A DNA stretch of 64,000 nt from Chiloscyllium plagiosum (taxonomy: Eukaryota): the NCBI RefSeq assembly GCF_004010195.1, contig NC_057719.1:40872969-40936968 (forward strand). The letters are read 5' to 3'. Position numbers and translations under genes: made by a program. Of the stretch, positions 2,250 to 62,234 are shown in pieces (within the stretch, counting starts at the first letter, position 1; each line of letters starts with the position of its first letter). The notes below the pieces were generated by a model that ran no database searches, was not told where the DNA came from, and worked only from the letters and a program-made list of their open reading frames with translations.

Positions 2250-2441
2250 AGTGTGGTGCTGGAAAACACAGCAGGTCAGGCAGCATCCAAGGATCAGGAG
2301 AATTGACATCAGCTCTCCTGATGAAGGGCTAATATCCAAAACATCAATTCTCCTGCTCCTCGGATGCTGCCTGACCTACTGTGCTTTTCCAGTACCACAA
2401 TCTCGACTCTGATCTCCAGCATCTGCAGTCCTCACTTTCTA
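2250..2441 (+). mobile_element. Fold-back Penelope-like mini-element, family A
   Basis: Inverted arms flank a CTGATGAAGGGC core. TSD caagccact(t/a)cacag at 2235-2249 and 2442-2456. Confidence 0.85.
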
Positions 2442-2489
2442 CAAGCCACTACACAGCAGCATTATTAAATAAAGTTGGACAATAGACGC

Positions 2490-3436
2490 AAAATAAATAT
2501 TTTGGCAAATGGTTAAAGGCTTGGTCAAAGAAGTTGATTTTAGGTAGTGTCTTAATGCAGGGAGAAAAGTCTAAGAGGGGGCAGAGATTGAAGGTAATAA
2601 CCCAGAACGTGGTGTTTTGGCAGCTGAAGGTGCAGCAAGTAATGTCAGGCTTTTTCAGGAGGCCACGTTTGGAGGAGCATAGGTATTCCAAAACTTTGTA
2701 GGGAAGGAGAAGTTTATTGAGGTCGGGAAAGGCTATAGGAGTGTGAACACAAGGATGAGAATTCAAAATTGAGCTATTGCTTTACTGGGAGAAATACAGA
2801 TTAGCAGCCAAAGAATGGGTAAACAGGACTTGGGAAAGCTATTACATGGGCAACAAGAGATTTGGATGACCTCAAATTTACAAGGGGTAGAGGGAAGGGG
2901 TTGGCCAGAAGTGTATTGCATTGGTCAAATGTGGAATTAACAAAGATATGCATAAGGATTTTAACACCAGATGTGCTGAGGCTTTGTCAATGTCATGGAT
3001 CTGGAAATAGACTACTTAATGATGGCACAAACATGTGTTTGGAAGCTCACCGTGGGGTTAAAAATGTTACCAAATTTGTGAACTGTTTGGCTCAACTTCA
3101 GACAGGAAGAGGGATGCAATCAATGGCAGAATTTGTAGAAGAGACTTATAGTATGGCTTCAGTCTTCCCAGTACTTAATCAGAGGAAACATTTGTCCTTC
3201 CAGAGCTGGATGTTGAACAGACAGTCTGCCAATTTAAAGATAATGCAAGAGTTCAGTAAGTTCGAGTTGAGATGAAGCTGAGTGTTGTCAGTATATGTCG
3301 GATTGTGAGTTTTTGGATGAATTCACCAAAGGGCAGCCCATAAAGTGAAGACCCAAAAATAGATCCTTGTGGGACACCTGGGATCATAATGTGGGAGTGG
3401 AAAGAGAAGCAATTGCAGACGAATCTTGGTCACAAC
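2490..3436 (-). mobile_element. Decayed L2-type LINE 3' portion
   Basis: Reverse complement shows a GVPQGS-like codon string near 3361-3380 and an L2-like 3' tail (CTTTGACCAAGC) near 2520. Confidence 0.6.
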
Positions 3437-3450
3437 TGGCTATCCTTAAT

Positions 3451-3659
3451 TAAATGAACTATGGACTTTGTAAATCAGGAACAAAAACTGAAGTTGCTGG
3501 AACAGCTTAGCAGGTCTGCCAGCATATGTGAAGAAAAATCAGAGTTAATGTTTCAAGTCTGGTGACCCTTCCTCAGAAAGGGTCACTGGACCCAAAACGT
3601 TAACTCTGATTTTTCTTCACAGATGCTGCCAGACCTGCTTAGCTTTCCAGCAACTTTTG
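3451..3659 (-). mobile_element. Fold-back Penelope-like mini-element, family B
   Basis: Inverted arms of about 80 bp meet at about 3570-3580, at a CTGAGGA-A-GGGTC core. Perfect 14-bp TSD tggctatccttaat at 3437-3450 and 3660-3673. Confidence 0.85.
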
Positions 3660-7414: not shown

Positions 7415-8041
7415 GAAATAGAGTGAGATATAACTTTATTGTCACATGTACTCAAATGCGTACAATGAAAAGTTTACAAGTCGCCACTTATGGCGCCATC
7501 TTAGGTACAAAGGTACCGAGGTAAAGATTGTTAAGTACAAATCAGAAAAGTAAAGAAATAAGAAGTCCAGCAATATAGATCATTGGAATAAATGAGAAAA
7601 TAAAGAAATAGAAAATTCAGAATAACAGTCCTTCCAAACCAGTCAGACTTCACCTTGACGCTGTCAAGGCTAGCAGACCACTCTGTAATTAATCTTGAGG
7701 CTAGAAGTCCATGTTGAGGCCACGCTAACCTTCTGACAAGTAGCCGCACTGATCTGAGAAATTACTACGCCAGGTCCGCTCTGAGGCCAGGAGTTGGAGC
7801 TTGCCATGAGGCCTGGAGTCTGAGTCTGTGCTGAGACCAGGAGGAGAAAGTGAGGTCTGCCAATGCTGGAGATCAGAGCTGAAAATGTGTTGCTGGAAAA
7901 GCGCAGCAGGTCAGGCAGCATCCAGGGAACAGGAGAATTGGCATTTCGGGCATAAGCCCTTCTTTAGGGCTTCTTCAGGGCTGAGACCAAGAGTTCAGGG
8001 CATCACCAAGACGAAAGAATGAAAAACACACAAAAGGGAAA
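7415..8041 (-). mobile_element. Non-autonomous retroelement with a Rex1/Babar-like 3' tail, inserted in the CR1 LINE
   Basis: Reverse complement ends TTTCATTGTAC...TACATGTGACAATAAA, a Rex1-like tail recalled from memory. It cleanly interrupts the LINE. Confidence 0.5.
7844..7979 (-). mobile_element. Penelope-like terminus, family A, with decayed hammerhead
   Basis: Same terminal sequence as 9353-9559. TSD gctgagacca(g/a)gag at 7830-7843 and 7980-7993. Confidence 0.85.
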
Positions 8042-9352: not shown

Positions 9353-9559
9353 GAGCTGAAAATGTGTTGCTGGAAAAGCGCAGCAGGTTAGGCAGCATCC
9401 AAGGAACAGGAGAATCGACGTTTCGGGCATAAGCCTGAAGAAGGGCTTATGCCCAAAACGTCGATTCTCCTGTTCCTTGCATGCTGCCTGACCTGTTGCG
9501 CTTTTCCAGCAACACATTTTCAGCTCTGATCTCCAGCATCTGCAGTCCTCACTTTCTCC
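9353..9559 (+). mobile_element. Fold-back Penelope-like mini-element, family A
   Basis: Near-perfect inverted arms of about 80 bp join at CTGAAGA (9435). Flanking repeat tcactg(a)gtattg at 9340-9352 and 9560-9571. Confidence 0.85.
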
Positions 9560-12790: not shown

Positions 12791-13012
12791 ATGGCTAATG
12801 TCATGGCTGAAATATTCATCATGGCCTAGGTGTTGTATTCTTTTCACCATCAGGTTATTCAAATATGATAAAGAAGAAATTAACTGTGGAGCTGCCTAGT
12901 CAGAACACTCACCAAGTGTCAGATAGATTTGCTAGTATAATTTGAGGAGGAACTGCCTGGATTCCGAGCAAAGGGCCCAGTTATAAATGTTAAGCCAGTG
13001 TAGTCATTGTCA

Positions 13013-14808
13013 GGGTTGAGAGTGTGGTGCTGGAAAAGCACAGCAGGTCAAGCAGCATCTGAGGAGTAGGAGAATCAATATTTCGGGCATATGCCCTTCA
13101 CCAGGAATGAGGCTTGTGGGCTGGGGGACTGAGAGATAAATGGGAGGGGGTGGGGCTGGGGGGAAGGTAGCTGAGAATGCAATAGGTAGATGAAGGTGGG
13201 AGAGAAGGTGATAGGTTGGAGAGGAGGGTGGAGTGGATAGATGGGAAAGACGATGGACAGATCAAGGGGGTGGTGCCAAGTTGGAGGCTTGGGATAGGGA
13301 TAAGGTGGAGGGGGGTGGCATGGAATGAGGAAACTGGTGAAATCCGCAGGAGGCAGGGTGGGAGGAGGTGTAGTCATGGGCACCCGCATATACCCCAGCT
13401 ATGCCTGTCTCTTTGTCAGGTACGTGGAACAGTTTTCTTCCGCAGTTACACCAGCACCATCCCACACCTCTTCCTTTGCTGCATTGATGACTGTATCGGT
13501 GCTACCTCGTGCTCTCATGGGGAGGTTGAACAGTTCACCAACTTCACTAGCACCTTTCACCTGAACGTCAAATTCACCTGGACCATTTCAGACACCTTCC
13601 ACCCCTTTCTGGACCTCTCCATCTCCATCAATGGCGAACAACTAAGTATGGACACCTACTAGAAACCCACTGACTCCCACAGCTACCTGGACTACACCTC
13701 CTCCCACCCTGCCTCCTGTAAAAACGCCATCCCTTATTACCAACTCCTCTGTCTCTGCTGCATCTGCTCCCAGAATAACCAATTCCATCATAGAAAATCC
13801 CAGATGGCCGTCTTCTTGATAGATCGCAATTTCCTCTCCCATGTGGTTGACGATGCCCTCCAGCGCACCTCCTCCATTTCCCACACCTCCCACACAACAA
13901 GGACGGAACCCACTGGTCCTCACCTTCCACTTAACCAATCTCTGTACACATTGCCTCATCCTCCGTCACTTCCACCAGTTACAAACAGACCAGACAAATA
14001 GGGACATATATTTCCCTCCCCACCCCTATCAGCGTTCCTGAGAGACAATTCCCTGTGTGACTTCTTTGTCAGATCCATGCCCTCCACTAGCCCACACCCC
14101 ACGTCTGACACCTTCCCTGCCACTGCAAGAAGTGCCAAACCTGCGCCCACACCTCCCCCTCACTTCCGTCCCAAGGCCCCAAAGGATTCTTCCATATCCA
14201 ATAGAAATTTACATGTACCTGTACCAATGTCTTCTACTGCAGCCTATATAGCTTCTTCTACATCCAGGAGAATGGGCGCCACTTGCAGATCGTTTCAGAG
14301 AACATCTCCAGGACACCTGCACCAACCAACCCCACCACCTGAACACTTCAACTCCCCCTCCCACTCCACCAAGGACATACAGGTCCTGGGCCTCCTCCAT
14401 CGACAAACCCTAGCCACCCTATGCCTGGAGGAAGAATGCCTCATTTTCTACCTTGGGACCCTGCAACCACACAGGGTTTATGTGGATTTCACTAGTTTCC
14501 TCATATCCCCCCCCACCTTATCCCTGTCCCAAGCCTCCAACTCGACACCACCCTCTTGACCTGTCCATCAACCTTTCCTATCTATCCGCTCCACCCTCCC
14601 CTACAATCTATCACCTTCTCCCCCACCTCCATCTACCTATCCAGTTCTCAGCTATATTCTCTCCCATTTATCTCTCAGACTCTCTGCCCACAAGCCTCAT
14701 TCCTGGTGAAGGGCTTATGCCCGAAACATCGATTCTCCTGTTCCTCCTTTTCCAGCACCACACTCTCAACACTGTTCTCCAGCATTTGCAGTCCTCACTT
14801 TCTTCCGG
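13013..14808 (+). mobile_element. 5'-truncated Penelope-like element (RT plus GIY-YIG endonuclease remnant) with inverted terminal copy
   Basis: Peptides GVVMGTRIYPSYACLFV, CIDDCIG (YIDD-like), KPTDSHSYLDYTSSHP and HFNSPSHS...LEEECLIFYLGTLQPH. 13013-13350 is the reverse complement of about 14470-14770. TSD agtcat(t/a)gtca at 13002-13012 and 14809-14819. Confidence 0.9.
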
Positions 14809-16272: not shown

Positions 16273-16556
16273 TCAGGCGACTCTCTGTGTGGAGTTTGCA
16301 CATTCTCCCCGTGTCTGCGTGGGTTTCCTCCGGGTGCTCCGGTTTCCTCCCACAGTCCAAAAAAAATGTGCAGGTTAGGTGAATTGGTCATGCTAAATTG
16401 CCCGTAGTGTCAGGTGAAGGGGTAAATGTAGGAGAATGGGTCTGGGTGGGTTACGCTTCGGCGGGTCGGTATGGACTTGTTGGGCCGAAGGGTCTGTTTC
16501 CACACTGTAAGTAATCTAATCTAATCTAATCTAATCAAGTAATCTAATCTAATCAA
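16273..16556 (+). mobile_element. HE1/V-SINE-type SINE, 5'-truncated, with (TAATC)n tail
   Basis: Near-consensus central domain with CpGs retained; (TAATC)n at 16512-16556. Confidence 0.9.
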
Positions 16557-19953: not shown

Positions 19954-20255
19954 TAGAAACCCTACAGTGTGGAAGAAGGCCATTCGGCCCATCGAGTCCA
20001 CACCAATCCTTCGAAGAGCATTCCACCCAGACCCACCCTTTCTACCCTGTAACCCTGCATTTCCCATGGGTAACCTACATATCCCTGGATGCTACAGGCA
20101 ATTTAGCATGGCCAATCCATCTAACCTGCACATCTTTGGACTGTGGGAGGAAACCGAAGCATCCTGAAGAAACCCACACAGTCACTTGAAACTGAAATCT
20201 AACCCAGGAGGTCTCTGGCACTGTGAGGGAATTATTCTAACCACTGAGCCACCAT
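19954..20255 (-). mobile_element. HE1/V-SINE-type SINE
   Basis: Same SINE family in reverse orientation. Confidence 0.85.
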
Positions 20256-21686: not shown

Positions 21687-21996
21687 CTTTGACTGGGCTG
21701 ATTTTGGTTAAAGTTAACAGCTGGTTTAGAAACTCCGAAAAGTGTTGCCAGCAAAATATAGGTTTAAAGAGACAATATCACAGATTCATTGAATTTCTAC
21801 AGCATGGAAGCAGGCCTTTCGGCCCATCGAGTCCACACTGACTTTGACTAGGCTGATTTTGGTGAAAGTTAACAGCTGGTATAGAAACTCCGAAAAGTGT
21901 TGCCAGCAAAATATAGGTTTAAAGAGACAATATCGCAGATTCATTGAATCTCTACAGCATGGAAGCAGGCCTTTCGGCCCATCAAGTCCACACTGA
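21687..21996 (+). repeat. Tandem duplication, 2 x 155 bp
   Basis: 21687-21841 versus 21842-21996: 6 substitutions, no indels. Confidence 0.95.
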
Positions 21997-22137: not shown

Positions 22138-23542
22138 TGTTTGATTTTTCTCAGAATATCTGAAATATTCTGATCTAAGTGGAGGCTAGTGATGGCATTG
22201 TTAGAGTTGAATGCAAGCTTTTGCTGCTGTCCAGGCCTTTTGATTGATACAAGGATTTGGATCTTTTGTCTGACTAACATCTGGAGTTATGAATACATCC
22301 ATGGGATCCGATGAACCAGTAAACCAAATGATGATATAGATAACATAAGGTGATCATGGATGAATCAGAAGACCAGAGTCTCATTGAAGGTGATTGAGGC
22401 AAGCAGTTGGGGATAGGCATCATCTTGAAGAAAAACAACAATCAGCCATGTAATTTGGAATTCTCTCAGTTATTTGGCAATACACAAATATTCAACATAG
22501 GAAGTTGTTCAATAATTTGTGCTGCACATATAAGACAGTTATATTTTAATTAGAAGTAACATATCATAAGCAAAATATTTTTTATATAGATACAAATAAG
22601 TTTGTAATATGGATGAACAGAACCTGATGTTTATTCATCATACGCACAGTTATACAAATAATTTGTACAATTAGTTCTTAAGTACAACTGAAGTTAATTG
22701 TTTAAAGTTCTATATTGTTCAGCATTCATCCCATTTAGACAGTTCCATTTATGACAGCTTATTAAAAAAACAAAGTCCATTAATTCAAAATTGGGACTAT
22801 TTTACTTTTTTTTCTTACATAAATAAGTGATTCATGATGAAGATAATTTTCCTCCTCACAGCCACTGGCACTTGACATTTACTACATTTTTTTTCAATCC
22901 AGAACATGTCTGCATGTAATTTAAGATCTAACTGTTTTGTTCACTGTGAATATATTGGTGCTAAATCAAAACTTAACTTTTAATGTCAAATGAAAATGCA
23001 GGTAACAAGGATAATGGAGAAATTAACATCACTTCAGATCATGGCAAATTAAAATCCAATTGAATTCTCCATGGTTACAACTGTAGACTGCCTTCTGATG
23101 AAAGTGATGGAAATGTTGCATTTACATATTGAATACAAACCATGCCCTGCACTATTACACTGGTAAAAAGAAAAAGAAGTACAAAACACTAATCAAGAAT
23201 ATCTATTATGCTGATCTCATTGTTCTAAGATTCATTTCGTGGTCAGGAACTTTCAGTTGCACTGTTATCTTGACACCTTGTCAATGAGGTAGTTGCTAAA
23301 CATGCCAGTGTTCAAAACAAGCCAATGTAGCTTGTTTACATTCTGCCCAATATCTTTCCAAATGAGAAGGTAAATTGAGTGAAGTATTTAATAAGCAGAT
23401 GATCTGCCGCTGTTCATCTTCAGCCCCTGGCAAAATAGAAAATTACCATATTTCTCAATGCTTGACCTCTGTAGAAATCTGTCCATCCCTTTTCATCCAT
23501 GACTCCAAATGGTTCATGTGAACTCATCTTGACTGCACTTTT

Positions 23543-23670
23543 GGATCAGTGGTGCTGGAAGAGCACAGCAATTCAGGCAGCATCCGAGGACAGGCAAAAT
23601 CGACGTTTCGGGCAAAAGCCCTTCATCAGACCTGGCTCGCAGGTTGGGCAGACTTTAATCCCGCTAAAAA
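23543..23670 (-). mobile_element. Penelope-like terminal fragment with intact hammerhead core plus 41 nt of unassigned sequence
   Basis: Minus strand reads CTGATGA-A-GGGC-TTTT-GCCC-GAAACGTC (23602-23629). Perfect 15-bp TSD cttgactgcactttt at 23528-23542 and 23671-23685. Confidence 0.85.
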
Positions 23671-32141: not shown

Positions 32142-32144
32142 GCC

Positions 32145-32180
32145 ATTCCTGAAGAAGGGCCTGTGCCCGAAACGTCGAAT
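32145..32180 (+). ncRNA. Minimal type I hammerhead ribozyme motif, family A, intact
   Basis: Stem I ATTC/GAAT; core CTGAAGA plus an extra A; stem II GGGC-ctgt-GCCC; GAAA; palindromic ACGT stem III. GUC cleavage triplet ends at 32176. Confidence 0.8.
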
Positions 32181-32272
32181 CTCCTGTTCCCTGGATGCTG
32201 CCTGACCTGCTGTGCTGTTCCAGCAATAAAGTTTCAACTTTGATCTCCAGCATCTGCAGACCTCACTTTCTC
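32145..32272 (+). mobile_element. Penelope-like terminus, family A, inserted at the CR1 tail
   Basis: Terminal sequence ending CTCACTTTCTCC. Flanking repeat ctctatg(c/t)catt at 32136-32147 and 32273-32284. Confidence 0.85.
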
Positions 32273-34413
32273 CTCTATGTCATTTGCCTCACTAATTGCT
32301 TGCTTACCCCTATGCTACCTTTGCATTCATTGTGAGAGTGCACCCAAGTATCTCTGAACATCACATTGAAAGATTTCTCACATTAAAAAAGAAATGTCAT
32401 TTTCTATTCTTTCTACTGAAGTGTATAACCGCAACTTAATTCATTTCTGTCACCATGTTGCCTATTCAGTAAACCCACCTTTTCTAACTTGTGTCGTCTC
32501 TCATCTTAAATGTCCACCGAGCTTTGTAACATCAACCAATATCGACATTTTATTCTTCATCTTTTTAAGTTATTAATACTTGTTGCAAAAAGCTGAAGCT
32601 CCAGTACTGATACCTGTTGCATTCCACCAATTACAGTTTGCCAACTTGAAAAACCTCTTGTTTCTGGCTGCTCTTAAGCATTCCCAAATCCATGAGCCTT
32701 TCTTCTGTTCATTCTCCTTTGATGTGGCACATTATCGAATGGCTGTTTTAAAATCCAAGTATATATTGCCTCCCGGAAGGGCTCTTGGGGGGCAGTGGTA
32801 GTATCTCTATGTTAGGCCAGGAGGGCTGGGTTCAAATACCACCTATTCCAACCGTTAGTGGTGTCGATAGTAGTCCAACACCTACTCCAAGAGTGTATAA
32901 ATAACATCATTGAACAGGTTCACTAGAAAATATCTACAACATCTACCGATTTTCCATATTCACCCATCCTCAAAAGAATGTCAGTAAAATTGTCAAATAT
33001 GTTTTCCATTTGGTAAAAGCACATTGACTTTGTCTGATCATGATCAGGGATTTTAAGTGCATTGTTAAGACTTACTAATAATAGATTTTAACACTTCTCT
33101 GACAAGTGATGTCAGACATAACTCGTCTGTTGTTTTCCGTTTTCTCTCTACTTACTTTGAATAGCAATGTCATGTTTGATAACTTCCAAATTGCTGGGAT
33201 TGCTGTAAATTCTAGTGAATTTTGGAAATCTATAACCAATGCAATTATGTCTTTTAGCGTCTCAGGATGCGAGCCATCCAGTTCTGAGAAATTGTCAGCT
33301 TTCAGTCTCTAAGTTTCTCCAATAACTTTTCTTCTTGCTATTAATTACTGTAAGTTCTTCACTCTTACTAGCCCCTTGGGAACCTTCTATTTCTGCCTTC
33401 TATTGTGAAGGCAGACACAAAATTCTTCAACATCTGTGCAATTTCCTTATTTCTCCATGCCAGTTAATGACCAATGATTAATTTAACTGCTGTCTTTCTT
33501 TACTTTTATTTACTTTTAAAGGCGCTTCCAATTTATTACTATATTCCTGGCAAGGTTTCTCATGTTATCAACTTTTCAACTTTTTAAGCCCTTTAAACTT
33601 TCTAAAACTCTTCCAATTCTATGGTTACCTGTATAATTGCAGTATTATGAACCCCCTTTAAACTAATATTTTCCTTAATTAAAAATAAGAAATAGATGGA
33701 ACCTTCATAACTCCTAAATGATATAGGAATAGGCAAGTCAATTGGGAAAACCAGTCAAACTCAGCAGAAATGAGGTTCTCAACTTCAAGAAAAGTAATCC
33801 AAGTCTGCAACAAGCATTGAACAGCGAGATGATAATCTCACTAATGAGTGGCACAAAGTCTATTTGTATCAAATTGTATATATTAGCATGCAGTTTTTAC
33901 CTAATATCACCTCATTAATGTGCAATTTTCCATCCTCCGAGATGCCTGAGAGAGATTAGATGATGACAATTCCCAACTTGAAAGTCAAAGTGGGTACCAG
34001 GTGATTCCAACTCACCACTTGCTCCTCTGGATTTTTATTTTGGAAGAGTCACCAGCATCTCAGGGTGCAGTCAATGGGCAATGACTGTCTGCATTCTTGT
34101 TCCATGGACTTTTGCATTGGACCAGCCTCACCACACCCTCACGGCACATGTCTGGTCTTCTTAGAGAATAGTTCTTCACTGCAGTGCTGCAGTGTCAAGT
34201 ACATTGGTACCTTTCATTGTAATGCTGCTGCCAGGACACTTTGTGCAGAGGGGTGGGTACCCATCTCATGATCAGGTAATAACATTCTCTGATTAAAAAG
34301 GAAGAATCTAAAATGGCTGCAATGGACCTCTTGCCATAGATTGAGCAAACTTCAGGAACCATCCATGCTGAAATGACCATTTCTATCTAAAGATCTCAAA
34401 AGTGGACAAATGA

Positions 34414-39409: not shown

Positions 39410-39915
39410 ACAAAATCAGAAATTGCTGGTTAAACTCAGGAGGTCAGGCTGCATCCATGGAGAGAAAGCTGAGTTGACATTTTGGGTCTAGTGACCCTTC
39501 TTCAGAACTGATTGTGGCTTGGTTAGTATATATGCTAAAGCAGGGATAGGGAAATGAGAAAGGAGTAAATACTAGATAGAGATGGAGCCCAGAGAGAGAG
39601 AGAAAACAGTTGGGCAGACAAAGGAGTGGGTAAAGGTCATCCTGGGAAAATGAATAGCTAATGGAGATCATTTGTGGCTGATGAGGGATTGTTTGTGGTT
39701 GCAGCCCATGTGATGACAGAGCCTGATTTGTGGGGGTTTGGGTAAGGACATAGGGCCTGAGCACTTCCTAAAATTGTTGAGTGTGATTTTGAGTCCTGAT
39801 GGTACAGGGTTTCCAAGTCGAAAATGAGATATTGTTCTTCCAGTTTGCATTGAGCTTCGATCGAGAACTTTAGATAAGTAAGGAAGCTCGAGACTGAGAT
39901 GTTGGCCAACAATCA
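39410..39915 (-). mobile_element. Penelope-like 3' end, family B: endonuclease C-terminus plus decayed hammerhead
   Basis: Peptide KLEEQYLIFDL. Minus strand reads AGTT-CTGAAGA-A-GGGTC-acta-GACCC-AAAATGTC-AACT, with stem I intact and the core CpG-decayed. Confidence 0.8.
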
Positions 39916-40585: not shown

Positions 40586-40712
40586 TATCCTGATGGAGGG
40601 TTTTTGCCTGAAACTTCGATTTTCCTGCTCCTCGGATGCTGCCTGACCTGCTGTGCTTGTCCAGCACCACACACTCGACTCTAATCTCCAGCATCTGCAG
40701 TCCTCACTTTCA
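40586..40712 (+). mobile_element. Penelope-like terminus, family A, with decayed hammerhead
   Basis: CCTGATGGAGGGTTTTTGCCTGAAACTTCGAT...CTCACTTTC. Confidence 0.8.
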
Positions 40713-41329
40713 CCCACTTTTGAAAAACAGACATTTTGGAGATAATTATTTTGAGGCAACTCAAATGGTGCATTTAGCATATGGTATTTCACTCTTCATA
40801 TGTTGTCGCTTAGCAATCACTGTGACTGTCTCCCCTTCATTGCCCATATCCCCACCCTGTGATGTTCGAACTACGTCACTGCATAATAACTGTGAAGTGA
40901 GTGTGCCTAGATTGCTGAATGATTTATGCATGACTTATGATGTTTGGTGCTCTAGTGATTGCTATGCTAGAGGCACATTGTCTTTCTTCTCCACGTTCTG
41001 CAAAGAGAACAAGTAGTAATTTAGAAACTAAACGCACTTACCTATTGTGTGTCATATTTATTTTACATGATGTATAAAGAATATACTTGCTACACATGAA
41101 GTATTTGAAACCACCTGCCCATGTTTTTGGGAGTTGATGCCCCAGTGATGTGTGGCAAGTTAGTCCTTTATCTGAATTTCTTGCTTTATAACTTTGCTCT
41201 GATAGGAGAATAACATTAAACTGTTAGAATATTTGTAATTGTTGATTGGCCTGTAAAGAGAATAGTGAAAAAATGTCTTGTTCAATGCTGGTTTTGTGCA
41301 CTAAACTGATTATATTGCTTTCCTTTCAG

Positions 41330-42041: not shown

Positions 42042-42963
42042 CACTATGGCTCAGTGGTTATCACTGCCGCCTCTCAGTGTCAGGGACCCAGGAGGTCATG
42101 TTGCGGCTGTACAGGCCACTTTTAGAATATTGCATGTACATCTGGTCACCTTCCTATTGGAAGGATATGATGAAACTTGAAAGGGTTCAGAAAAGATTTA
42201 CAAGGGTGCAGAGTTGGAGTATTTGAGCTATAGGAAGAGGTTGAATAGGCTGGGGCTGTTTTCCTTGGAACGTTGGAGGCTAAGGGGTGACCTTATAGAG
42301 GTTTGTAAAATCATGAGGGGCATGGATAAGATAAATAGACAAAGTCGCTTCCCTGGTGTGGGGGAGTCCAGAACTAGAGGGCATAGATTTAGGGTGAGAG
42401 GGGAAAGATATAAAAGAGACCTAAGGGGCAACTTTTTCAGGCAGAGGGTGGTATGTGTATAGAATGAGCTGCCAGAGGAAGTGGTGGAGCAGAGTACGAT
42501 TGCAACATTTAAAAGGCATTTGGATGGGTATATGAATGGGAAAGGTTTGGAGGGATATGGGCCGGGGGCTGGCAAGTGGGACTAGATTGGGTTGGGATAT
42601 CTGTCGGCATGGACGGGTTGGACCGAAGGTTCAGTTTCCGTGCTGTACACCTCTATGACTCTACCATTGATTCTTGGCTTGGGCGAACATCTGTATGGAG
42701 TTTGCACATTCTTCCCCTATCTGCATGGGTTTCCTCTGGGTGCTCCAGTTTCCTCTCACTGTCCAAAGATGTGCAGATTAGGTGGATTGACCGAGGTAAA
42801 TTGCCCACTGGTGTACAGGGATGTGTAGATTAAGTGGATTAGCCATGGGAAATACAGGTTACAGGGATAGAGTAGGGTCTGGGTCTGGGTGCAATGTTCC
42901 TTGGAGGGTTGATGCAGATTCAATGGGCTGAATGGCCTCTTTCCTCACTGTAAAAATTCTACG
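42042..42963 (+). mobile_element. HE1/V-SINE-type SINE split by a CR1 3' fragment (42091-42663)
   Basis: The SINE head ends at GGGACCCA (42090), the CR1 fragment follows (RLRGDLIEVCKIMRG, tail CTCTATGACTCTA), and the SINE resumes at about 42666. Confidence 0.88.
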
Positions 42964-42974: not shown

Positions 42975-43110
42975 ACAAAAAACAAAGAACCATAGATGTC
43001 GGAAATCTGAATTAAAAACAGAAAAAGCTGGAGAAACTCAGCAGGTTTGGCAGCATCTGTGGAGAGAAAACAAAGTTAACATTTCAGTTCTAGTGAATCT
43101 TCTTTGGAAT
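42975..43110 (-). mobile_element. Old Penelope-like terminus, family B-like
   Basis: GCTGGAGAAACTCAGCAGGTTTGGCAGCATCTGTGGAGAGAAA...GTTAACATTTCAG. Confidence 0.7.
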
Positions 43111-50653: not shown

Positions 50654-50861
50654 GTCCGTATCTGTTCCAAGTGGAATATCAAATGATGTTAGTTTCAAAT
50701 GTAGACCTCAAAAGCATTGATAACCCTGTCAATATAGATAACTTTCCACCTAGTTTTGTCAAGTTTAAAGAGTCAGATTTTAAAAAAAATCTACATTACC
50801 TTGTTTTAAAATATGTGGTTCCATGTTCCATTTGAAATAAACATTTTTCTATTTGAACTAG

Positions 50862-53800
50862 TACGCCTCAAGTTCTTCAGGAGGAGAGAGTTCTTGTGAA
50901 GAAGGCCGGATTCGAAGACCACCTAATTTAAGACCCTTTCACTCAAGAACCACAGCTCTTGATTCAAATCTTCCTGTATTAGGAATACCCAGTGATCCAG
51001 ATTATTCATCAAGCAGTGAGCAATCATGCGATACAGTTATTTATGTTGGTCCTAATGGTGCAGCACTGTCTGATCGAGAGCTAACAGATAATGAGGGACC
51101 ACCAGAGTTTGTCCCCATAATCCCTTCTCTTAACAAGAAGCATGACCCCAAGAAAAGCAAGGAAACTATGATTGTTGGTAAGAGGACTGAAAGAGACTAT
51201 TTCAAATGTAACACTTTTGCTGAACTGCAGGAAAGATTAGAGTGCATTGATGGGAGTGAGGAACCCATCCAGTTTTCCTGTGAGCAAGGACTTTTCATCT
51301 GTAGTAATAATCCAACCCCTATGAGGATGGAGAATGTGCAATGTCTAATATCACACGAAACAGCACAATCTGGCCCGGCAACAGAAAAGGTACCGGTACC
51401 TTCTCACAATCTCTATGGAAAACATTCTCCAATAGAAGTGGTGTCTCCTAAAAAGGGCCAGAGCTTGCATGCTCCGTTACCAGTTCAGCAGCATAATGGA
51501 TCTCCAGTGAAGAGCCCTTCTCACTCGATAACAACTGAACATTCAAAAGTGCAAACCAAAGCTGAAGGAAGCATAATGGAATTAAGTGGTAACACTGGAA
51601 TGGATGGAGTGAAGGAGACAATCACAGCTTCCACAAAAGTGCCCAAATCCAACAGCCCGAAAGCACACAAGCCGGCCCACACTACGCCTGCGCCTGCCGT
51701 GAGGGAAAAGTTGTTTTTCAATAGAAGGCCGTTGCCAAGCCCTGCACCACCACCTCCCCAAACAAAAGATAGAAAAATCGATTGCTCTGAATCTAGTAGT
51801 GGCGGTGTGATAAGAACTCCTCCAGTAGGAATGAGCCATCAGGTAACAAATAAATCGGATTCCATTGTAACTGGAGGTGCTGCTGCACATTGCAAAAGCA
51901 AATACAAACAATCCACTGGATCAGATGCAAATTGTATAAGGTCAGCATTCAGGAATGATTGTATTGACCGAGATATGTTGACTACTACTGTGACTTTGCA
52001 GCAGCCTGTGGAACTGAATGGCGAAGATGAGCTGGTATTTACTGTTGTAGAAGAACTGTCATTTGAAGGGATTTTGGAAAGTGGTCGACCTGCTAGCATT
52101 ATTAGCTTTAATAGTGATTGCTCACTTCAGGCCTTGGCCTCAGGCTCACGGCCTGTCAGCATTATTAGTAGCATAAACGATGACTTTGAAGCTTATACCT
52201 CACCGGCAACCACTGCTGGAGCAAACATGGACAATGTTGTGCCAGTTGCAGATGATTCTTTTTGCAACAGTAGCAGACGATCATCAATTAGTTCCTGGCT
52301 CAGTGAACTAAGCATCTGTGCTATAGAAAGTGATGGGGCTCAACCCTCTGACACTTTCATTGTGCAGTCTTGTTACAGTTATGGTGAGAACACTCTGGGA
52401 TCTTTTAATTTGGACTCATCTGACATGCTGCAAGACATGTGTGCACCACTGATGCAGGCTCAAAACAGTAACTTGACTGATAGCTTCTTCAGAGTAACAG
52501 AAGCTAACAAAAGCACTGGTTCAATCAAACCTGTTGTCAACACCGACAAAGGTTCCAGTGCCTTAGGTTTATCCAAAGTGGTGTCTGGCAAAGTTGTGAT
52601 TGGCAGTAATGATTCATCAGCAACTAAAACCAGCACCCCAGTGCATCGTCATGTCCCCGTAATTTCTGAAGATCCTATTTGCTACTCTAGTCTTCCCCGG
52701 AAAATGAAATCTACCTCATCTGTGAACCATAGCGGTAGCACAGTAGATTGTGGAGATACTCTACAGCAAGAAATCGAGTCTGAGGATCCTTGGTTACAAC
52801 GCACAAGTGGCCACTCAGAGCCAAAAGCTGAGGATCAAGCACTTTCTGTCAAGTTTGCTCCCAAATCTGCTTCTCACAGTCAAATCAAACAGCAAATGAA
52901 AACATCCCATAATACTGGAACTATTCCTCGGCTTAACAAGTCTCATACACCTGCTTCCTGTACACAACGGGTTGTTTATGGATGTGAAATGGTGAATAAA
53001 TCTGATGGATTCAACAATGCCATTGGTGCAAACACAAGAAAAAATGATGCGCCAGCTAAGGTATCACAAGTGAAAAAAGGAAATGCAATGGTTGCTACAA
53101 TGCCAATAATGCACACCAGTGTTAATACTGGAGCTATACCCAAAGACCAACCAGATTTTGCTTCAGTGACAAGCAGCTTAAAATCAGCTTCATGCAAGAA
53201 AACTTCAGTGCCCAAAACAAGCTTGCTACCAAGGCTCAATGGGATACCTCCAGCTCCCCCAGTCCGTAAATCCAGTCTAGAGCAAAGAAACAGAGTTACT
53301 CCACAAACTAATGCTCAAAAATGTACCAGTCCAGAGGTAGTTAATGTATCACCATCAAAATTAGAGGATGAAATAGATGGGAGACTAAATGTTGCTTCTT
53401 GTATTGTTGAAGGTAACAACAGCAGATCAACAAACATAAAGTCTGACCACATGTTTGTTAAAAACATTTCAAGCTCAAAATCCCGAATGCCTAAACCTGA
53501 GTCCGTGCATCGCTGTGGGAGTCTGCAATCACTTGAGAGATGTGATAGTCTTACATCAGTTGGATCCAAACATAGCATGTCTAAGGAAAGTGGCCACCTC
53601 GTCAACAACAGTAGAGCAGGCCGATCAGTACCGAGGCTTGGTGTGTCACCATCAGCTCCAGTAATGTCCACTCCGACCGTTCCTGTCGTCCCTGCTACTG
53701 GGAAATCCAATCAAACCAAAAGTACTTCCACTAATAAGGTGATGGTGTCAGGAAATAAATGCCGAAGCCTTTCTACAAGTGGTGTGAAAGGGTTAAGCAC

Positions 53801-54360
53801 ATCGGTTAAATCATTAACCCAATCAATGGGTCGAAGTTCCAGTGTGCCATCAAATGGAAAAACAATACCTCGTTCAACACAGGTAGCAATGTGCAAACCT
53901 GGTAAAGGAACTATCATGGGAACAAAGCAAGCCGTCAGGGCAGCAAACAGCCGTGTCTCTGAACTAGCTTCTGGGGCGTCCTCCAGTAAAGTGGGCCACT
54001 TGAGAGGATCCACTGACTCTGACAGTGGGAATGACAGTGGGGTCAACCTCAGCGATGAAATATCACAGATTCCAGTCTTGCCTTCTCCATACAGTAAAAT
54101 AACTGCACCAAGGAGACCTCAACGCTACAGCAGCGGGCATGGTAGTGACAACAGCAGTGTTCTTAGTGGAGAGCTGCCTCCAGCCATGGGAAGAACAGCT
54201 CTTTTTTATCATAGTGGTGGCAGCAGTGGCTATGAAAGTATGATACGTGACAGTGAAGCTACAGGGAGTGCATCATCTGCACATGATTCCATGAGTGAAA
54301 GTGGAATGTCTTCATCTGGTCGTAACAGAAGTTCAAAGTCCCCCAAAAAACGGATGGCTG
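50862..54360 (+). CDS. KIF26A: KIF26A giant exon encoding the Ser/Pro-rich tail (YASSSSGGESSCEEGR...SPKKRMA-G)
   Basis: tag acceptor, G|gtaagc donor; 3499 nt of open frame that includes ORF 51168-54386. KIF26 blocks present: DPDYSSSSEQSCDTVIYVGP, FAELQERLECIDG, LQQPVELNGEDELVFT, YSKITAPRRP, HSGGSSGYES. Across the exons, residues such as DNPG, VCSG, GTRF, YLRED, AKHVPY and SDRE recall KIF26A rather than KIF26B. Confidence 0.93.
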
Positions 54361-55254
54361 GTAAGCTAGAAATTTATTTATTATAGTATTTGGCTCCAAT
54401 TTTTGAGAATGAAAATGCAAGAACATTTTTGAGGAGAAATTACATTAAATATTTTTTATTTATTCATGGAATCTGGGCATCAGCACTTATTTTCCATCTC
54501 TAATCACTCTTACAAAGAAAAATGAAAAGTGTAGCTTTTGTGTGAAGGTATATTGCCTGATCATCTTCTGTGTAATATTTACAAGTGTCACTATGTACTA
54601 AGCATGACTCAAGGTGTCTATATAGTGATTTACTTTCTTGGTAACCACAAATGGAACTGATACTAGTTATTCAGCTTCCCCTGAATCTGACTATCAACTA
54701 GACTATCAACTATTCACTAGAAATTGAATTACATAAAGTGAAAACCTTTTGCCAGTTATTTGTAAGCCTCAGTCTATGGCTGCATATTACCCTCTATTCC
54801 CCCCCCCCCCCCAGCGAAGGGGGTCTTGTTAAATCCAATGGATGGCCTGCCCACTATCCACCTGCCCATCCCTGTCCCCACCACAAATGTACCAGTGGCA
54901 GGGGTGACATAGTGTCACCTGCCTAGCAGTGGGCCAATTGAGATCTTTATTTGGGTAATTAATGCCTGTGATGCCTCTGGAATTGAATACACAGTGGGAA
55001 AGTCCAGTGCCATTGCTCAGCCTGGCAGGTTGTTCTGCATATGTTGGTGTCTGGAGGGACATGGAGAAGCTCCCACTTTAATGGATCTCTGAGGGTATTG
55101 GAGGTGCTCTCCTCCTGCCTTTGCCTCCCAATCCCCTATCTTCTCTTTGTGGCCTTTAAACTTGGCATTCAGCAAGGTCCCCATATATTTACCGAAATCC
55201 TGATCCAGGGTTGGATGTGCCTGTTGCTCATTGGCTGGCAGCTGTCTAAGAATG

Positions 55255-57465: not shown

Positions 57466-57817
57466 GGGGCAACATGGGGGCTGAGCACTGCTGCCTCATA
57501 GTGGCCAGGGAGCCAAGTTCAATTTCACCTTCTGGTGACTGTGTGAAGTTTGCACATTACACATTCTCCCTTAACCTGCGTGAGTTTCCTCCAGGTGCTC
57601 CAGTTTCTTGCTACAGTCCAAAGATGTGCAGGTTAGGTGAATTGGCCATGCAAAATTACCCATAGTGTCCAGGGATGTGCAGGCTAGGTGGGTTAGCCAT
57701 AGGAAATATAGGATTATAGGGATAGGTTAGAGGTATGTGCCTGAGTCAGATGCTCTTCAGAGGGTCATTGTGGACTGGATGGGCTGAATGGCCTGCTACC
57801 ACACTGTAGAGATTCTG
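57466..57817 (+). mobile_element. HE1/V-SINE-type SINE
   Basis: Head, central domain and tail recognisable. Confidence 0.85.
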
Positions 57818-58383
57818 TTAAATAACTTGCACTGTCTGCTGTGTACCTCACCTGTCAGGAATGTGCTAGTCATGATTTACCAACCATGAAAGGAATAATT
57901 GAAAATCATGTGCAATGTTTGTCACTAAGTTTCCAATATATACTACTGCTCAAAGACTCCTCCTGGAATGGCACTGTTTGAAAACTATTCATCAAGAATA
58001 GGGACTTTTTAAACAATCTTTCATGAAATATGGACCTTGCCAATGAAGCAGCTTTTATTGCCCATCCCCATTCACCCTTGAGAGCACTGAAAGGATACGA
58101 TGTTGCTGTGCTTCTGGAATAAGATAGGCCACACTTGGTAAGGAAAGTGGATTTCTTTCCCTTTTTTTGACAATTGAAAATAATATTATGGTCACTGTTA
58201 CTGAGACTAGACTTTTAATTCTAGACTTAAAGATTGAATTTAAATTCCACTAGCTGCTTTGGTGAGATTTGAACCCATTTCTGGAGCATAGCTTAGGCCT
58301 CCAGACTACTTGCCCAATGACATCCATGATTTGGAGTTGAGTGGGTACATTTTTCAATTCTTTTGGTTCTAACTTTAGAAATT

Positions 58384-58755
58384 GGGTGGCGCAGTGGCAG
58401 AGTGGTTAGCATTGCTACCTCATGGTGCCAGGGACCTGGGTTAAATTCCACCCTTGGGTGACTGTCTGTGTGGAGCTTGCACATTCTCCCTGTGTCTGTG
58501 TGGGTTTCCTCCAGGTGCTCTGGTTTCCTCCAATAGTCCAAAGATGTGCAGGTTGGGTGAATTGTCCATGCTAGATTGCTCCATAGTATCCAGTGATGCA
58601 CAGGATAGGTGGATTAGCCATGGGAAATGCAGGATAACAGACATAAGATGGAGGGGGGAAAAAAGAGAGACTGGGGTGGGATCCTCTTTGGAGGATCGTC
58701 GTGGAGTCAATGGGCTAAATTGCCTGCTTCCACACTATAGGGATTCTACGATTCT
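58384..58755 (+). mobile_element. HE1/V-SINE-type SINE
   Basis: GGGTGGCGCAGTGGCAGAGTGGTTAGCA head, central domain and tail. Confidence 0.88.
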
Positions 58756-61700
58756 TATTATCTGATCCAACACTGATTCAGCTGGACGTGCCCCTGTTCC
58801 TCATGTGAAAAACAGGCAAGTAAGAAGAATTAATTAACCATGTCATGTTCCAGTGTATTAACAGTTTGGCTTTGTCCTTCTCTGCATTGGATAGACTAAA
58901 GATATGACATTACTAAACAAAGACTGTAGCAATTCAGTATCAAAGCTGTAACCCCACACTATTTAGAGAGGATTAAGCACACAAAGTAATTGGATCTTAA
59001 TGAGGTGCTATTTACTTTTTGAACATGTTTATTATTGTAGTCAGTGCTGAGCAGTGCAAGCAGTAACCCAACACCATTTAGAAGAGATTAAGTATCGAAG
59101 GGAATTGCAACTTAATGAGGTGTGAGCTACCCAGTGAACACCTGTTAGTACCCAAATTAGATGGAATACATGACATGTGGCCAGCAGCAACTTAATAATT
59201 AAGTGTAATGAAAATGGTAAAATGGTTAGTGTTTTTGAATGATTTAGATGATTGCTTGGCATAAGGGAATGTTGTGATGCAGTGGCTGTCTGCTTACCTC
59301 TGGAGCAGAAAAACTGAGTTTAAGTTCTGACTGTCCTAGAGTAGGAACAGGAACAGGAACAGGTTGACTAAAAATAATAGATGATTGCCTGATTTGAAGA
59401 TAGCAAGATGAAATGCTGGGGACAGCATATAGCTGCTGAATTGGGCTATTTGTCAAAGAGTGTCATCTAAGGCACACATTGTATATTGCTGTGGTTAATG
59501 TGGAAATATTTAGTTTGGCCAGAGTTAATAGAGCATATGGGTTCTCTTGTTAATCGATTGCTGTAACATTAGTAACCCTCCTCTATATTTGAGGTGCAGT
59601 CACTCAGTTTTTAGAGAAAACTGAAACCTTTCCATGGGACCAGTAAATATTTAAATAGTGGAACACCATTCAATGGACATGACATTCAAAACCCTACCAG
59701 CTAATTTTATTGACATTAAAAATTTGAACACGAAACCATGAGCTGGTTGTTTTTGATATGGGGACAAAATTGTTGCTTTACTTTAAATATTTTTACTGAG
59801 AGACATGATGTACTGGTAGGAATTGCACTTATATTTGAGTCATGTCCATATCATTTATACAGTTGTACAATCTAAAAGTAATGAGGATAACTACAATTAA
59901 ATGTATTCTACTTTTATAATGAGTAATAACTTATTCATTTGTAATATTTTTCTAGCTCTACAATAAAGTAGGCCTATTCTACTCAATTATGCTTCCTGTG
60001 TTTATTTTAAAGTCTCTCTCCACTTTCTATTCATTCTCTAAACTAGTCTTATATGCACACTGAGATTGATTCCTTTAACAGATGTGGAATGAAAACAATT
60101 TCTCAATTCAATTTGGCACAATTTCTCCCAGGCTCTTGAAAATCTTATTTTACTGGTGGAAGATATCTTCCCTGCCACCAATAGAAAAAGTACAGTACCA
60201 CAATCTACATCTATACTATGGATGTGCATCCAGAGCAATACAATTTTGTAACATTTGTCACGTGAAGCATAGAAAAGATGTCTATCAATCACGTGTTTGG
60301 ATGAATGATGGCTGCTCACACTTCATTACATCAGAGTTGCCTGTTTTCAATGCTGCTGCATTTTGAATAATTAGATATCATGGCATCTCAGTGACTGGTG
60401 TTAAATTAAGACTTACTTGAGTGTGACTAAACCATCCAGGTAGATCAGCCACATAATGATTGCCTGGCTAAAGTAATTGATTCCATTTCCCAATAATTAG
60501 CTTAATTGCTCCTTTTCCTCAAGCATCTTTAAAATTTTAACCATTTTGTTAAAGTGATAGATGAAATGTGAATTGAATTTGCCACTGCTAAACAGTACTT
60601 TAAAATTTTAACATTACCTGGTTTAGGTGAGTGTTAGAATTTATCGCCAGGTGCATTATCACTCACATATGCTTCAAAGAATACCACCAACAATTGATCA
60701 GTATGTCATTAAATTTCATCGTGAGTTGCCCCATAGGTCAGGGGAAGTGGAAATAATTAAAAATTCGTTTATTAAAGACTTTTACTGAAATCCACATACC
60801 CATTTATCTTGGATCCCAGACTGCTCTACTGCAGGACTCTGCCATCCTTTCTCTACTCACAATACATCTCAACTGGTCTAAATGTTGCAACATGTCCTGT
60901 TTCCAGTCAGTCAGCAGTTCTTTCTGACTGACTTAGGGGTTGCCATCTGAGAAGACAACTTAATGTTTATGACCTTGTCATTAAACCCTCCATGGTTTTG
61001 CATGTTCATTCTTTTTCCCTCCACAGTCTTGTGCTGCTTGGTTTTTGCAATCTCTTCTAGCCTGTTACCTACTTTTGTCCTCATAAATTCAATACCTTGG
61101 ACTCTGGACTGTTGCACATCCCATACTACGGCCTTCCCCTGCCAACTCTACCTCCTTCAGTCTTTTGTTGACAGCAGAACCTTAATCTTTTCCATCTATC
61201 AAGATTTTCCTTCCTCAACCTCTCTGTTACTATCTTGTCTTTTAAAAACTGTGTCAAACTCCAACTTTTCCATTATTGCATTTAATCACTGCCTTCCTGC
61301 ATCTGTTTTCATTATCACTGTCTTTGAAATCCCTTGTGGCATCCTGCTCACTGACTCTTCCCAACTCAAAACAGCTATGGACAATTATTTTTTCCACAGA
61401 GATGAAGCCAAAGTTTAACCTTACTTTCCACTGTTACCTTTGTTGACGATTGATTCATGAAGCCACCAATCAAAACTGTCACTTTCACTCTTTCAGTGTC
61501 AGTTATGGAATTACGTTCCCATTTTGCTGAGACTGCTGCCATATAAATAGCTGTAGAAGAGGGTGGATGGCTATAATTAGTTCAATCTAATCTGGCAGTT
61601 TCGAATTCCTGGAAATTGAGTTCTGTATGAACCAATTTTAATATCAAAGCACCATCATCAATTTAAATTAATGCAAAAATAAGAAAAAAACCGATGATAA

Positions 61701-62027
61701 TACGGTTTTATAGGTGGGAGGATGGTTAAAACAAAGGAATGTACAACAGGCCATGATGTGCAAACTAGGAGCTGTCACCACCATTAAAAGTCATTTGAGA
61801 AGATGTGTAAAGGTTAAAAGATAAATAGCAAGACAGATGAATTTGGAAAAGGAATTCCAGTAATTAACAACAAAAAGTTGAAAGTCTTATTCTTAATGAG
61901 GGTTGAAACAAGGAAAAATACACAACATGGAACGAGTTCAAGAAGAGATGTTTGGCTTGAGGAAGCCTCAGAGTTTGGGTGACATAAGGTCACAAAAGGG
62001 TTTAAAGACAATAATGAGATCTGTGAA

Positions 62028-62234
62028 AAGTTAAAAGATCACACAACACCAGGTTATAGTCCAACAGGTTTAATTGGAAGCACACTAGCTTTCGGAGCGC
62101 CACTCCTTTATCAGGTGATGAAGGAGCAGCACTCCAAAAGCTAGTGTGCTTCCAATTAAACCTGTTGGACTATAACCTGGTGTTGTGTGATTTTTAACTT
62201 TGTATACCCCAGTCAAACGCCAGCAACCCAAATC
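62028..62234 (+). mobile_element. Fold-back Penelope-like mini-element, family C
   Basis: Near-perfect inverted arms of about 80 bp meet at the hammerhead core (about 62108-62122). Perfect 14-bp TSD atgagatctgtgaa at 62014-62027 and 62235-62248. Confidence 0.88.

What the first reader, a model, noticed from the sequence alone, without database searches (positions are those of the whole stretch)
2250..62234. Recurrent fold-back mini-elements from three Penelope-like families, each inverting at the hammerhead
Seen: four insertions of about 190-210 bp (2250-2441, 3451-3659, 9353-9559, 62028-62234) look like MITE hairpins. However, they have 12-15 bp TSDs, one arm extends into a PLE 3' tail, and each inversion point falls at or just before CUGANGA. 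The single-arm copies at 7844, 23543, 32145 and 40586 also begin at the 5' edge of the hammerhead. That is about 30 nt upstream of the cleavage triplet, so self-cleavage alone does not explain these ends. Established: PLE insertions often carry an inverted, 5'-truncated terminal copy. Inference: the ribozyme fold is a hotspot for RT stalling or template switching, or these are a mobile class of non-autonomous ribozyme-bearing mini-retroelements.
Basis: partly seen in the sequence, partly recalled or inferred. Interest (0 to 1): 0.7.

Follow-up and report, generated by a model that had tools for sequence, protein, structure and literature searches.

The report
Penelope hairpins stop at capped start
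These 190-210-base hairpins are real, very common stubs of Penelope-type jumping genes, likely built anew at each site when two DNA copies of one RNA ran off its likely capped start just ahead of the ribozyme and were joined head to head, which would explain how this class makes its inverted ends.

Summary
The four hairpins and four single arms are real, and five of the six checked duplications are 13-15 bp. They are termini of three endonuclease-bearing Penelope-like (PLE) families. In 1.36 Mb sampled at fixed coordinates, 5' ends pile up at -6..+2 (hammerhead C3 = 0) at 14 times the upstream rate, with no peak at the cleavage site. The landmark is an Initiator-like A (-4 in families A and B, -8 in C). 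Genome-wide, arms starting there are preceded by G in 67, 47 and 73 of 100 listed copies (26% expected; 13-31 at neighbouring positions), the mark of a capped RNA start rather than a ribozyme stall. Junctions are nearly all unique (107 of 110). One arm has the tail and the other ends about 35 nt earlier, both arms share one haplotype, and one junction occurs in both polarities. They are therefore by-products, not a self-copying element. Likely mechanism: both cut strands prime on one RNA. The layout is in print; I did not find this mechanism in print. The scan reported the same thing before, in this and other genomes. Interest 0.5.

The parts
2250..2441 (+). Family A (A2) head-to-head insertion: tail-less antisense arm about 2250-2307 (+84 to +25), 8-nt filler, tailed sense arm 2316-2440 (-2 to +124)
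   Evidence: TSD 2235-2249/2442-2456
3451..3659 (-). Family B head-to-head insertion: tailed arm on the minus strand (3451-3578), tail-less arm on the plus strand (3572-3659), overlapping at the hammerhead core
   Evidence: exact 14-bp TSD 3437-3450/3660-3673
9353..9559 (+). Family A (A1) head-to-head insertion: tail-less antisense arm 9353-9435 (+92 to +9), tailed arm 9434-9559 (-1 to about +126), 2-nt microhomology; hammerhead C3 at 9435, G12 mutated to A at 9455
   Evidence: TSD 9340-9352/9560-9571
62028..62234 (+). Family C (C1) head-to-head insertion: tail-less antisense arm 62028-62117 (+87 to -3), tailed arm 62116-62234 (+1 to about +121); its junction type recurs 186 times exactly in the genome
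   Evidence: exact 14-bp TSD 62014-62027/62235-62248
7844..7979 (-). Single tailed family A arm (-1 to +127) with an 11-nt re-copied stretch at its 5' end
   Evidence: TSD 7830-7843/7980-7993
23539..23629 (-). Single tail-less family A (A3) arm, 0 to +91
32144..32275 (+). Single tailed family A (A1b) arm starting at -5/-4, overlapping its TSD by microhomology
40588..40714 (+). Single tailed family A (A2) arm, -2 to +126; no TSD found
13010..14803 (+). Long family A PLE copy with the same geometry: inverted tail-less pLTR (about 13010-13314), decayed RT and GIY-YIG remains, 3' UTR, hammerhead and tail
63292..63529 (+). Family C arm that continues upstream into the parent 3' UTR (-116 to +122); shows the Initiator-like motif at -8
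39410..39695 (-). Long tail-less family B arm (about -200 to +96)
42984..43102 (-). Old single tailed family B arm (+5 to +124)

Best explanation
The hairpins are short head-to-head insertions of endonuclease-bearing Penelope-like retrotransposons that likely arise anew at each site: the element's RNA likely starts at a capped, Initiator-like A 4-8 nt ahead of the hammerhead, both nicked target strands likely prime reverse transcription on that one RNA at two internal sites about 35 nt apart, and the two cDNAs likely run off the 5' end and are joined through microhomology. Shown here: the layout, the TSDs, the pile-up of 5' ends, the extra G, unique junctions, shared haplotypes and the one-sided tail. 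Inferred steps: (1) the start site is the RNA 5' end (about 0.8); (2) the stubs do not copy themselves as a unit (about 0.9); (3) two primings on one RNA, the trailing RT displacing the first cDNA (about 0.65). Single arms, tailed or tail-less, are the same event with only one strand primed. The ribozyme is a bystander that happens to sit directly behind the start site. Because priming is internal, the copy of the priming site near the RNA's 5' end yields only 90-130 nt of cDNA.
For: (326 of 451 unbiased arms kept: identity >= 0.85 and reaching +75): 5'-end hazard 0.056/nt at -6..+2, against 0.004/nt at -16..-150; no excess at the cleavage site (8 ends vs 64 in the rest of +11..+45, p = 0.83). 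Exact genome-wide patterns, first 100 listed rows counted by hand. Family A start -4: 5,359 copies, preceded by G 67 / A 18 / T 15. Family C start -8, a position picked beforehand from the Initiator-like motif and a 3-of-3 hint: 480 copies, G 73. Family B start -4: 1,247 copies, G 47. Expected 26%; p = 7e-18, 8e-23, 5e-6. Controls: A start -3, G 13 of 100; A start -5, G 21; C start -7, G 31. In held loci G precedes 17 of 27 ends at -4 but 25 of 111 ends at -3..+45. The upstream flanks of the G copies differ locus by locus in A and C. An untemplated 5' G is read as a capped template for L1 (PMC6425141, passages). Tail on exactly one arm: 102 of 110 pairs have a tailed arm, 4 have two, 88 have the other arm ending at +75..+100; 109 head-to-head vs 0 tail-to-tail. 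Unpaired short arms end at either site (38 tailed, 32 at the inner site, 9 other). TSD found in 35 of 45 young unbiased pairs (swapped-flank control 1 of 217), mostly with 1-4 nt microhomology at both outer ends. The arms agree at three common variant sites in 41/42, 38/42 and 44/45 pairs (about 23 expected), and share 100 derived alleles vs 52 in permutations (max 68). The tail-less arm reaches further 5' than the tailed one in 64 pairs vs 40 (p = 0.024); simple fold-back from the tailed cDNA cannot give those 64. In vitro, an anole PLE cuts and extends both strands, starts at two internal sites that bound the tail, and does not need ribozyme cleavage (PMC11167929). Drosophila Penelope has an internal Inr/DPE promoter in the pLTR (PMC2377424).
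Against: No RNA 5' end was observed; the cap is inferred from DNA. An RT that adds C at any template end (for example an uncapped processed end) would leave the same G. Apparent ends at -3 (5,707) are as many as at -4, and many ends lie at +3..+40 (103 of 326), so trimming, microhomology or premature stops are common. A fourth variant site is discordant between arms (34 of 45, 36 expected). I attribute this to selection by my query, whose tailed arm carries that variant; it appears only in query-selected loci. Shared haplotypes cannot separate one RNA from two RNAs of one source locus. Family B is weaker: it is older, and 3 of its first 13 G rows are one insertion duplicated. In D. virilis the ribozyme's 5' edge coincides with a 3' splice site, not the start site (PMC4209133), so the arrangement is not universal. 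No full-length copy starting at -4 and running into the ORF was found among held loci.
Confidence: 0.72

Rival explanations
1. Same RNA 5' end, but one cDNA folds back on itself (or jumps onto its own nascent strand) and the second arm is copied from DNA, not RNA.
For: It explains shared haplotypes and the 40 of 104 unequal pairs in which the tailed arm reaches further 5'. Fillers at junctions often repeat nearby element sequence.
Against: In 64 of 104 pairs the tail-less arm holds 5' sequence absent from the tailed arm, while the tailed arm holds the tail absent from the other, so neither can be a copy of the other. The tail-less outer end coincides with the 3' end of unpaired arms, as a priming site would. 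Inner ends of the two arms are uncorrelated (Spearman 0.12, p = 0.22).
Confidence: 0.12
2. RT stalls or switches template at the folded hammerhead.
For: The hazard rises steadily across the ribozyme from +40 to -6. In families A and B the start site is also the 5' strand of stem I, so the two landmarks coincide there. The fold may account for part of the +3..+40 shoulder.
Against: A stall inside a longer RNA gives no reason for a non-parental G at one exact position. In family C the G-marked end is at -8 while stem I begins at -3. The minimal hammerhead has only 2-4 bp in stem I.
Confidence: 0.07
3. A non-autonomous, self-propagating hairpin or retrozyme-like mini-element.
For: Very high numbers: about 80 pairs per Mb. 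One family C junction recurs in 186 exact copies, and a second in at least 7 of 30 loci. Single stubs may keep downstream promoter parts and could be re-transcribed.
Against: 107 distinct junctions in 110 unbiased pairs. The -8/-3 junction carries the tail on one arm in 2 loci and on the other in 5. 16 fetched copies of the 186-class have outer ends (70-93) like other pairs (81-94) and no allele shared by more than 3. 5 of the 6 commonest A1 haplotypes also occur in long copies.
Confidence: 0.05
4. Self-priming on an antisense transcript makes the head-to-head palindrome, as proposed in PMC3846280 (passages).
For: It predicts head-to-head rather than tail-to-tail repeats, as seen (109 vs 0).
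Against: It does not predict an extra G on the sense strand at an Initiator-like A, single arms ending at either of two sites, or target microhomology at both outer ends.
Confidence: 0.04

Closest known systems
Insertion units of EN+ Penelope-like elements (inverted 5'-truncated copy, 30-40-bp tail at one end, TSD; PMC8557442 Fig. 2 passages, PMC3846280 passages)
   Same: Head-to-head inverted copy, one-sided tail of about 35 nt, TSD, hammerhead in the pLTR, RT upstream of GIY-YIG in long copies; a long copy of this layout lies in the window at 13010-14803.
   Different: Here most units are only 122-250 bp (94 of 109 pairs have both arms starting at -15 or later), extremely numerous, and end at one G-marked position.
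Poseidon PLE of the green anole in vitro (PMC11167929, main text read)
   Same: Two internal RT start sites bounding the tail, both strands cut and extended, hammerhead dispensable.
   Different: The parts of that paper I read give no model for inverted copies and no run-off at a capped start. Families A and B carry a CX4CxxC linker, so they are Neptune/Nematis-type rather than Poseidon.
L1 twin priming (recalled, not from a call)
   Same: Both target strands prime cDNA on one RNA, and the cDNAs are joined by microhomology into an inversion within a TSD.
   Different: In L1 the two cDNAs cover different parts of the RNA and the second priming site is variable. Here both cover the same 90 nt, from two fixed sites, giving a palindrome.
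Non-LTR retrozymes (bioRxiv 10.64898/2026.07.22.740005, first fifth and passages; PMC7229834 listing only)
   Same: Non-coding, type I hammerhead, related to PLE pLTRs.
   Different: Retrozymes are head-to-tail tandem units thought to move through cleaved circular RNA. These are head-to-head, and their ends ignore the cleavage site.
Opposite-strand dual minimal hammerheads in Schistosoma (PMC4209133, parts 1-2 of 4 read)
   Same: Pairs of minimal hammerheads close together on opposite strands, attributed to truncated PLEs.
   Different: Only noted there (about 100-700 bp apart), with no breakpoint analysis.
MITEs / DNA transposons
   Same: Short fold-back appearance.
   Different: Variable 9-20-bp TSD, asymmetric arms, variable centre, retroelement-derived sequence.

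Membership tests
EN+ Penelope-like element | RT followed by a C-terminal GIY-YIG endonuclease upstream of the terminus | tested here: met
   Long copies of A and B, and two of C, show GIY-YIG-type motifs 270-860 nt upstream of C3; RT motifs lie further upstream in A and B. Atlas look-alikes of the window fragment include RVT_1 clusters (19% of members). Pfam and PDB found nothing for the decayed fragments. Motif naming is recalled.
EN+ Penelope-like element | Inverted 5' copy and 30-40-bp tail at one end only | tested here: met
   102 of 110 pairs tailed on one arm, 4 on both; 109 head-to-head, 0 tail-to-tail
EN+ Penelope-like element | Minimal type I hammerhead in the pLTR (CUGANGA, extra nt, stem II, GAA, palindromic 15.1-16.1, short stem I) | tested here: met
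   A and C: stem II of at least 4 bp, 4-nt palindrome, stem I 2-4 bp. B read by eye from the reference (stem II 5 bp, palindrome, stem I 4 bp; G12 in 33 arms, A in 41 by CpG decay; the script's offsets for B were wrong). Cleavage activity not tested.
EN+ Penelope-like element | Intact single ORF and partial tandem (pLTR-ORF-pLTR) | tested here: inconclusive
   No intact or full-length copy among held loci
Neptune/Nematis clade | CX2-5CxxC linker between RT and EN | tested here: met
   CX4CxxC seen before the GIY motif in A (BL131, BL151) and B (L202) copies; not seen for C; no tree built
Non-LTR retrozyme | Head-to-tail tandem units each with a hammerhead, ends set by self-cleavage | tested here: not met
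   Head-to-head layout; no excess of ends at the cleavage site
Non-autonomous replicating unit (SINE/MITE-like) | Fixed junction, ends and private alleles shared among dispersed copies | tested here: not met
MITE / DNA transposon | Fixed short TSD and symmetric terminal inverted repeats | tested here: not met
   TSD 9-20 bp in 104 of 127 pairs; tail on one arm
Capped Pol II start at an Initiator | RNA 5' ends with a cap at the Inr A | not testable with these tools
   Only the DNA footprint (extra G) was tested; the Initiator consensus is recalled

The most novel reading that the evidence does not exclude
PLE integration is two-ended, and the 90-130-nt run-off cDNA is a normal strong-stop-type intermediate. 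The start site at -4/-8 and ribozyme cleavage at about +28 in the downstream pLTR would define a roughly 32-36-nt terminal repeat through which that cDNA jumps to the RNA's 3' end, as in retroviral first-strand transfer. The hairpins and single stubs would be the failed jumps, and this would give the PLE hammerhead a function. The run-off and two-ended parts are supported here; the jump is untested. Upstream and downstream subfamilies agree in 65 of 66 confidently assigned long arms, so jumps between different RNAs are rare, which leaves jumps within one RNA open.
Probability: 0.2. Interest if true: 0.8.

Novelty: new variant of a known kind. Interest (0 to 1): 0.5.

Why it matters
How Penelope-like elements make their inverted ends, tails and pLTRs is an open question; the published proposal I saw invokes self-priming on antisense RNA (PMC3846280). 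This genome holds roughly 80 head-to-head pairs per Mb in the sample (some 0.28 million if that extends to 3.56 Gb), a fossil record that maps the likely RNA start to the nucleotide in three families, links the in vitro two-site, two-strand priming to a genomic product, and removes the ribozyme as the cause of the turn. It gives direct predictions for 5'-RACE and for the existing in vitro system. It also warns annotators that such hairpins are neither MITEs, microRNA precursors nor retrozymes.

Tried and rejected
Rfam found no hammerhead, only three sub-threshold microRNA-like matches, two of them on the hairpins. Two DNA searches of the own genome returned nothing, probably because very common words are skipped; no evidence either way. 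No RNA holder was listed as on record. Raw single-cell poly(A) reads from 2 runs: one laid 2,755 reads in both directions, 93% running on into unlike sequence, i.e. dispersed copies inside other transcripts, with no start pile-up; the other laid none. This is no evidence on the start site. Pfam and PDB gave nothing for decayed ORF fragments. A 3' splice site as the cause of the edge was considered and rejected for A and C (no AG before the edge, no shared upstream exon); for B an AG lies at -4/-3 and is not excluded. A parent subfamily with G at -5/-9 was rejected because flanks differ. Target preference for G was rejected because ends at neighbouring positions lack it. The first impression of a recurrent family C junction was inflated by my query, which spanned the junction; in the unbiased sample no C junction recurred. 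A wider genome-wide histogram of 5' ends from -21 to +49 was not obtained, so that range rests on the 1.36-Mb sample. Loci for the 186 recurrent junctions could not be fetched; only 16 found earlier were examined. No full-length element start was found. Supplements of PMC11167929 held as text had no hit for four terms; its supplementary figures and the bioRxiv supplements were not seen.


Full report
Observation. One arm is about 35 nt longer. They belong to three families: A (2250, 9353, and single arms at 7844, 23539, 32144, 40588), B (3451) and C (62028). With hammerhead C3 as 0, the inner ends are +25/-2, -2/0, +9/-1 and -3/+1 (with the last read from the sequence). The window also holds a long family A copy (13010-14803) with an inverted tail-less pLTR, decayed RT and GIY-YIG remains, then hammerhead and tail.

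What they are. Long copies elsewhere show GIY-YIG-type motifs upstream of the core in A, B and two C copies, and a CX4CxxC linker in A and B (motif naming recalled; the linker is described for Neptune in PMC8557442 passages). The core is a minimal type I hammerhead with a 4-nt palindrome in place of stem III (for A and C; B by eye), as described for PLEs in PMC4209133 (parts 1-2 of 4). Rfam does not detect it. The window is C10:40872969-40936968 of a 3.56-Gb assembly.

Unbiased census. I fetched 14 blocks of 100 kb at round coordinates on 14 contigs (1,358,274 non-N bases). They hold 451 arms and 110 head-to-head pairs (450 and 109 in the re-run). To avoid false truncations I aligned each arm to subfamily references that extend 165-200 nt upstream. 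Among 326 arms kept (125 dropped for identity under 0.85 or not reaching +75), the per-nt chance of a 5' end climbs from 0.004 (+41..+60) to 0.056 (-6..+2), is 0.025 at -15..-7 and drops to 0.004 further upstream. The cleavage site shows no excess (8 vs 64 ends, p = 0.83).

The landmark is a likely RNA start. In family A the modal end is -4, the A of an Initiator-like motif; B has one at -4 and C at -8 (consensus recalled). Exact genome-wide patterns gave 5,359 A copies starting at -4, of which 67 of the first 100 listed are preceded by G; 480 C copies at -8, 73 of 100 G; 1,247 B copies at -4, 47 of 100 G. 26% is expected; p = 7e-18, 8e-23 and 5e-6. These tallies are hand counts of the listed rows; the first 30 were confirmed by script. 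Neighbouring positions show 13 (A, -3), 21 (A, -5) and 31 (C, -7) of 100, against about 29 expected. The G is either untemplated or supplied by the partner strand or target where it can pair with a terminal C on the cDNA. For L1 such a G is taken as the mark of a capped template (PMC6425141 passages). Because the marked position is -8 in C while stem I starts at -3, the edge follows the Initiator, not the ribozyme. Against a clean picture: apparent ends at -3 are as numerous as at -4 (5,707), 103 of 326 ends lie at +3..+40, three of B's first 13 G rows are one duplicated insertion, and RNA reads were uninformative.

Not a self-copying unit. 107 of 110 unbiased junctions differ. The family C junction of the window recurs in 186 exact copies, but 16 examined copies have the same spread of outer ends as other pairs and no allele shared by more than three. 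A second recurrent junction (-8/-3), whose overlap includes the extra base, carries the tail on one arm in 2 loci and on the other in 5. Five of the six commonest A1 haplotypes also occur in long copies. Recurrence is thus explained by microhomology. Re-mobilisation of single stubs is not excluded.

Two primings on one template. 102 of 110 pairs have one tailed arm, 88 have the other ending at +75..+100, and 4 have two tails; there are 109 head-to-head and 0 tail-to-tail pairs, and unpaired short arms end at either site (38 and 32). TSDs were found in 35 of 45 young unbiased pairs and 104 of 127 overall (9-20 bp; swapped-flank controls 1 of 217 and 11 of 632), with short microhomology at both outer ends. 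Both outer ends therefore look like priming sites. The arms agree at three common variant sites (41/42, 38/42, 44/45; about 23 expected); a fourth disagrees (34/45), which I attribute to query selection. The tail-less arm reaches further 5' in 64 pairs and the tailed arm in 40; in those 64 neither arm can be a copy of the other. This fits the anole PLE, which in vitro cuts and extends both strands, starts at two internal sites bounding the tail, and does not need ribozyme cleavage (PMC11167929, parts 1-2 of 4), and the internal promoter of Drosophila Penelope (PMC2377424, parts 2-3 of 4).

Mechanism. Inferred: transcription starts at the Initiator just ahead of the hammerhead; the protein nicks both strands 12-16 bp apart; each 3' end anneals by a few bases to one of two sites about 90 and 125 nt into the RNA; each cDNA runs to or near the cap; the ends are trimmed and joined by microhomology or a short filler. 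One priming gives a single stub; priming at the downstream copy of the site gives long copies. Confidence 0.72. Rivals: cDNA fold-back 0.12, stall at the ribozyme 0.07, self-copying element 0.05, antisense self-priming (PMC3846280 passages) 0.04.

Novelty. The layout (inverted copy, one-sided tail, hammerhead, opposite-strand hammerhead pairs) is in print. Nine paper searches showed no report of run-off at a capped start or of two-ended priming as the origin of PLE inverted ends, but the library lacks most subscription papers, including the 2005-2006 PLE reviews, and I read the listed papers only in part. The scan itself has noted this pattern in 228 findings in at least 29 genomes and repeatedly in this genome, with the same capped-start reading. 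I reached that reading before those look-ups; they are unchecked AI notes and add no independent support. The boldest reading left open is a strong-stop-type transfer through the repeat between start site and cleavage site (probability 0.2); one search shows that jumps between subfamilies are rare (1 of 66) but cannot test jumps within one RNA.

Verdict. Real; a new variant of a known kind; interest 0.5.

Noticed in passing
window 50862-54383 (+): A 1,174-codon stop-free stretch, probably the large exon of a KIF26-type kinesin gene (name recalled, not tested); many of the window's stubs may then be intronic.
   Followed up: no
window 697-868, 16276-16519, 20071-20185, 34413-34689, 42678-42962, 57537-57818, 58389-58749: A second abundant dispersed repeat of about 300 bp, SINE-like (families D2, D7, D9, D12); several PLE stubs elsewhere sit next to or inside it.
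   Followed up: no
L297, L299, L303 (around 1500): The same family B stub with identical flanks at three loci on C1: an insertion carried along inside another repeat or a duplication.
   Followed up: no
L305 and L269 (around 1400-1500): Arms of different PLE families abut: C then B in L305, A then C in L269; either targeting of earlier stubs or a jump between RNAs.
   Followed up: no
family C tail end (held loci): The bases beyond the tail stay conserved for a few positions and include an ATG, suggesting that the outer priming site lies at the ORF start.
   Followed up: partly
window 7969-7979; L191, L226, L267, L268: Junction fillers often re-copy 6-30 nt of the element's own 5' end, which suggests repeated slip-and-extend cycles during joining.
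   Followed up: no
L225:2604-2900: A head-to-head pair with tails on both arms and mirrored flanking sequence, a different product from the usual one-tailed hairpin.
   Followed up: no
window 21687-21996: A 155-bp tandem duplication at 96% identity within SINE-like sequence.
   Followed up: no
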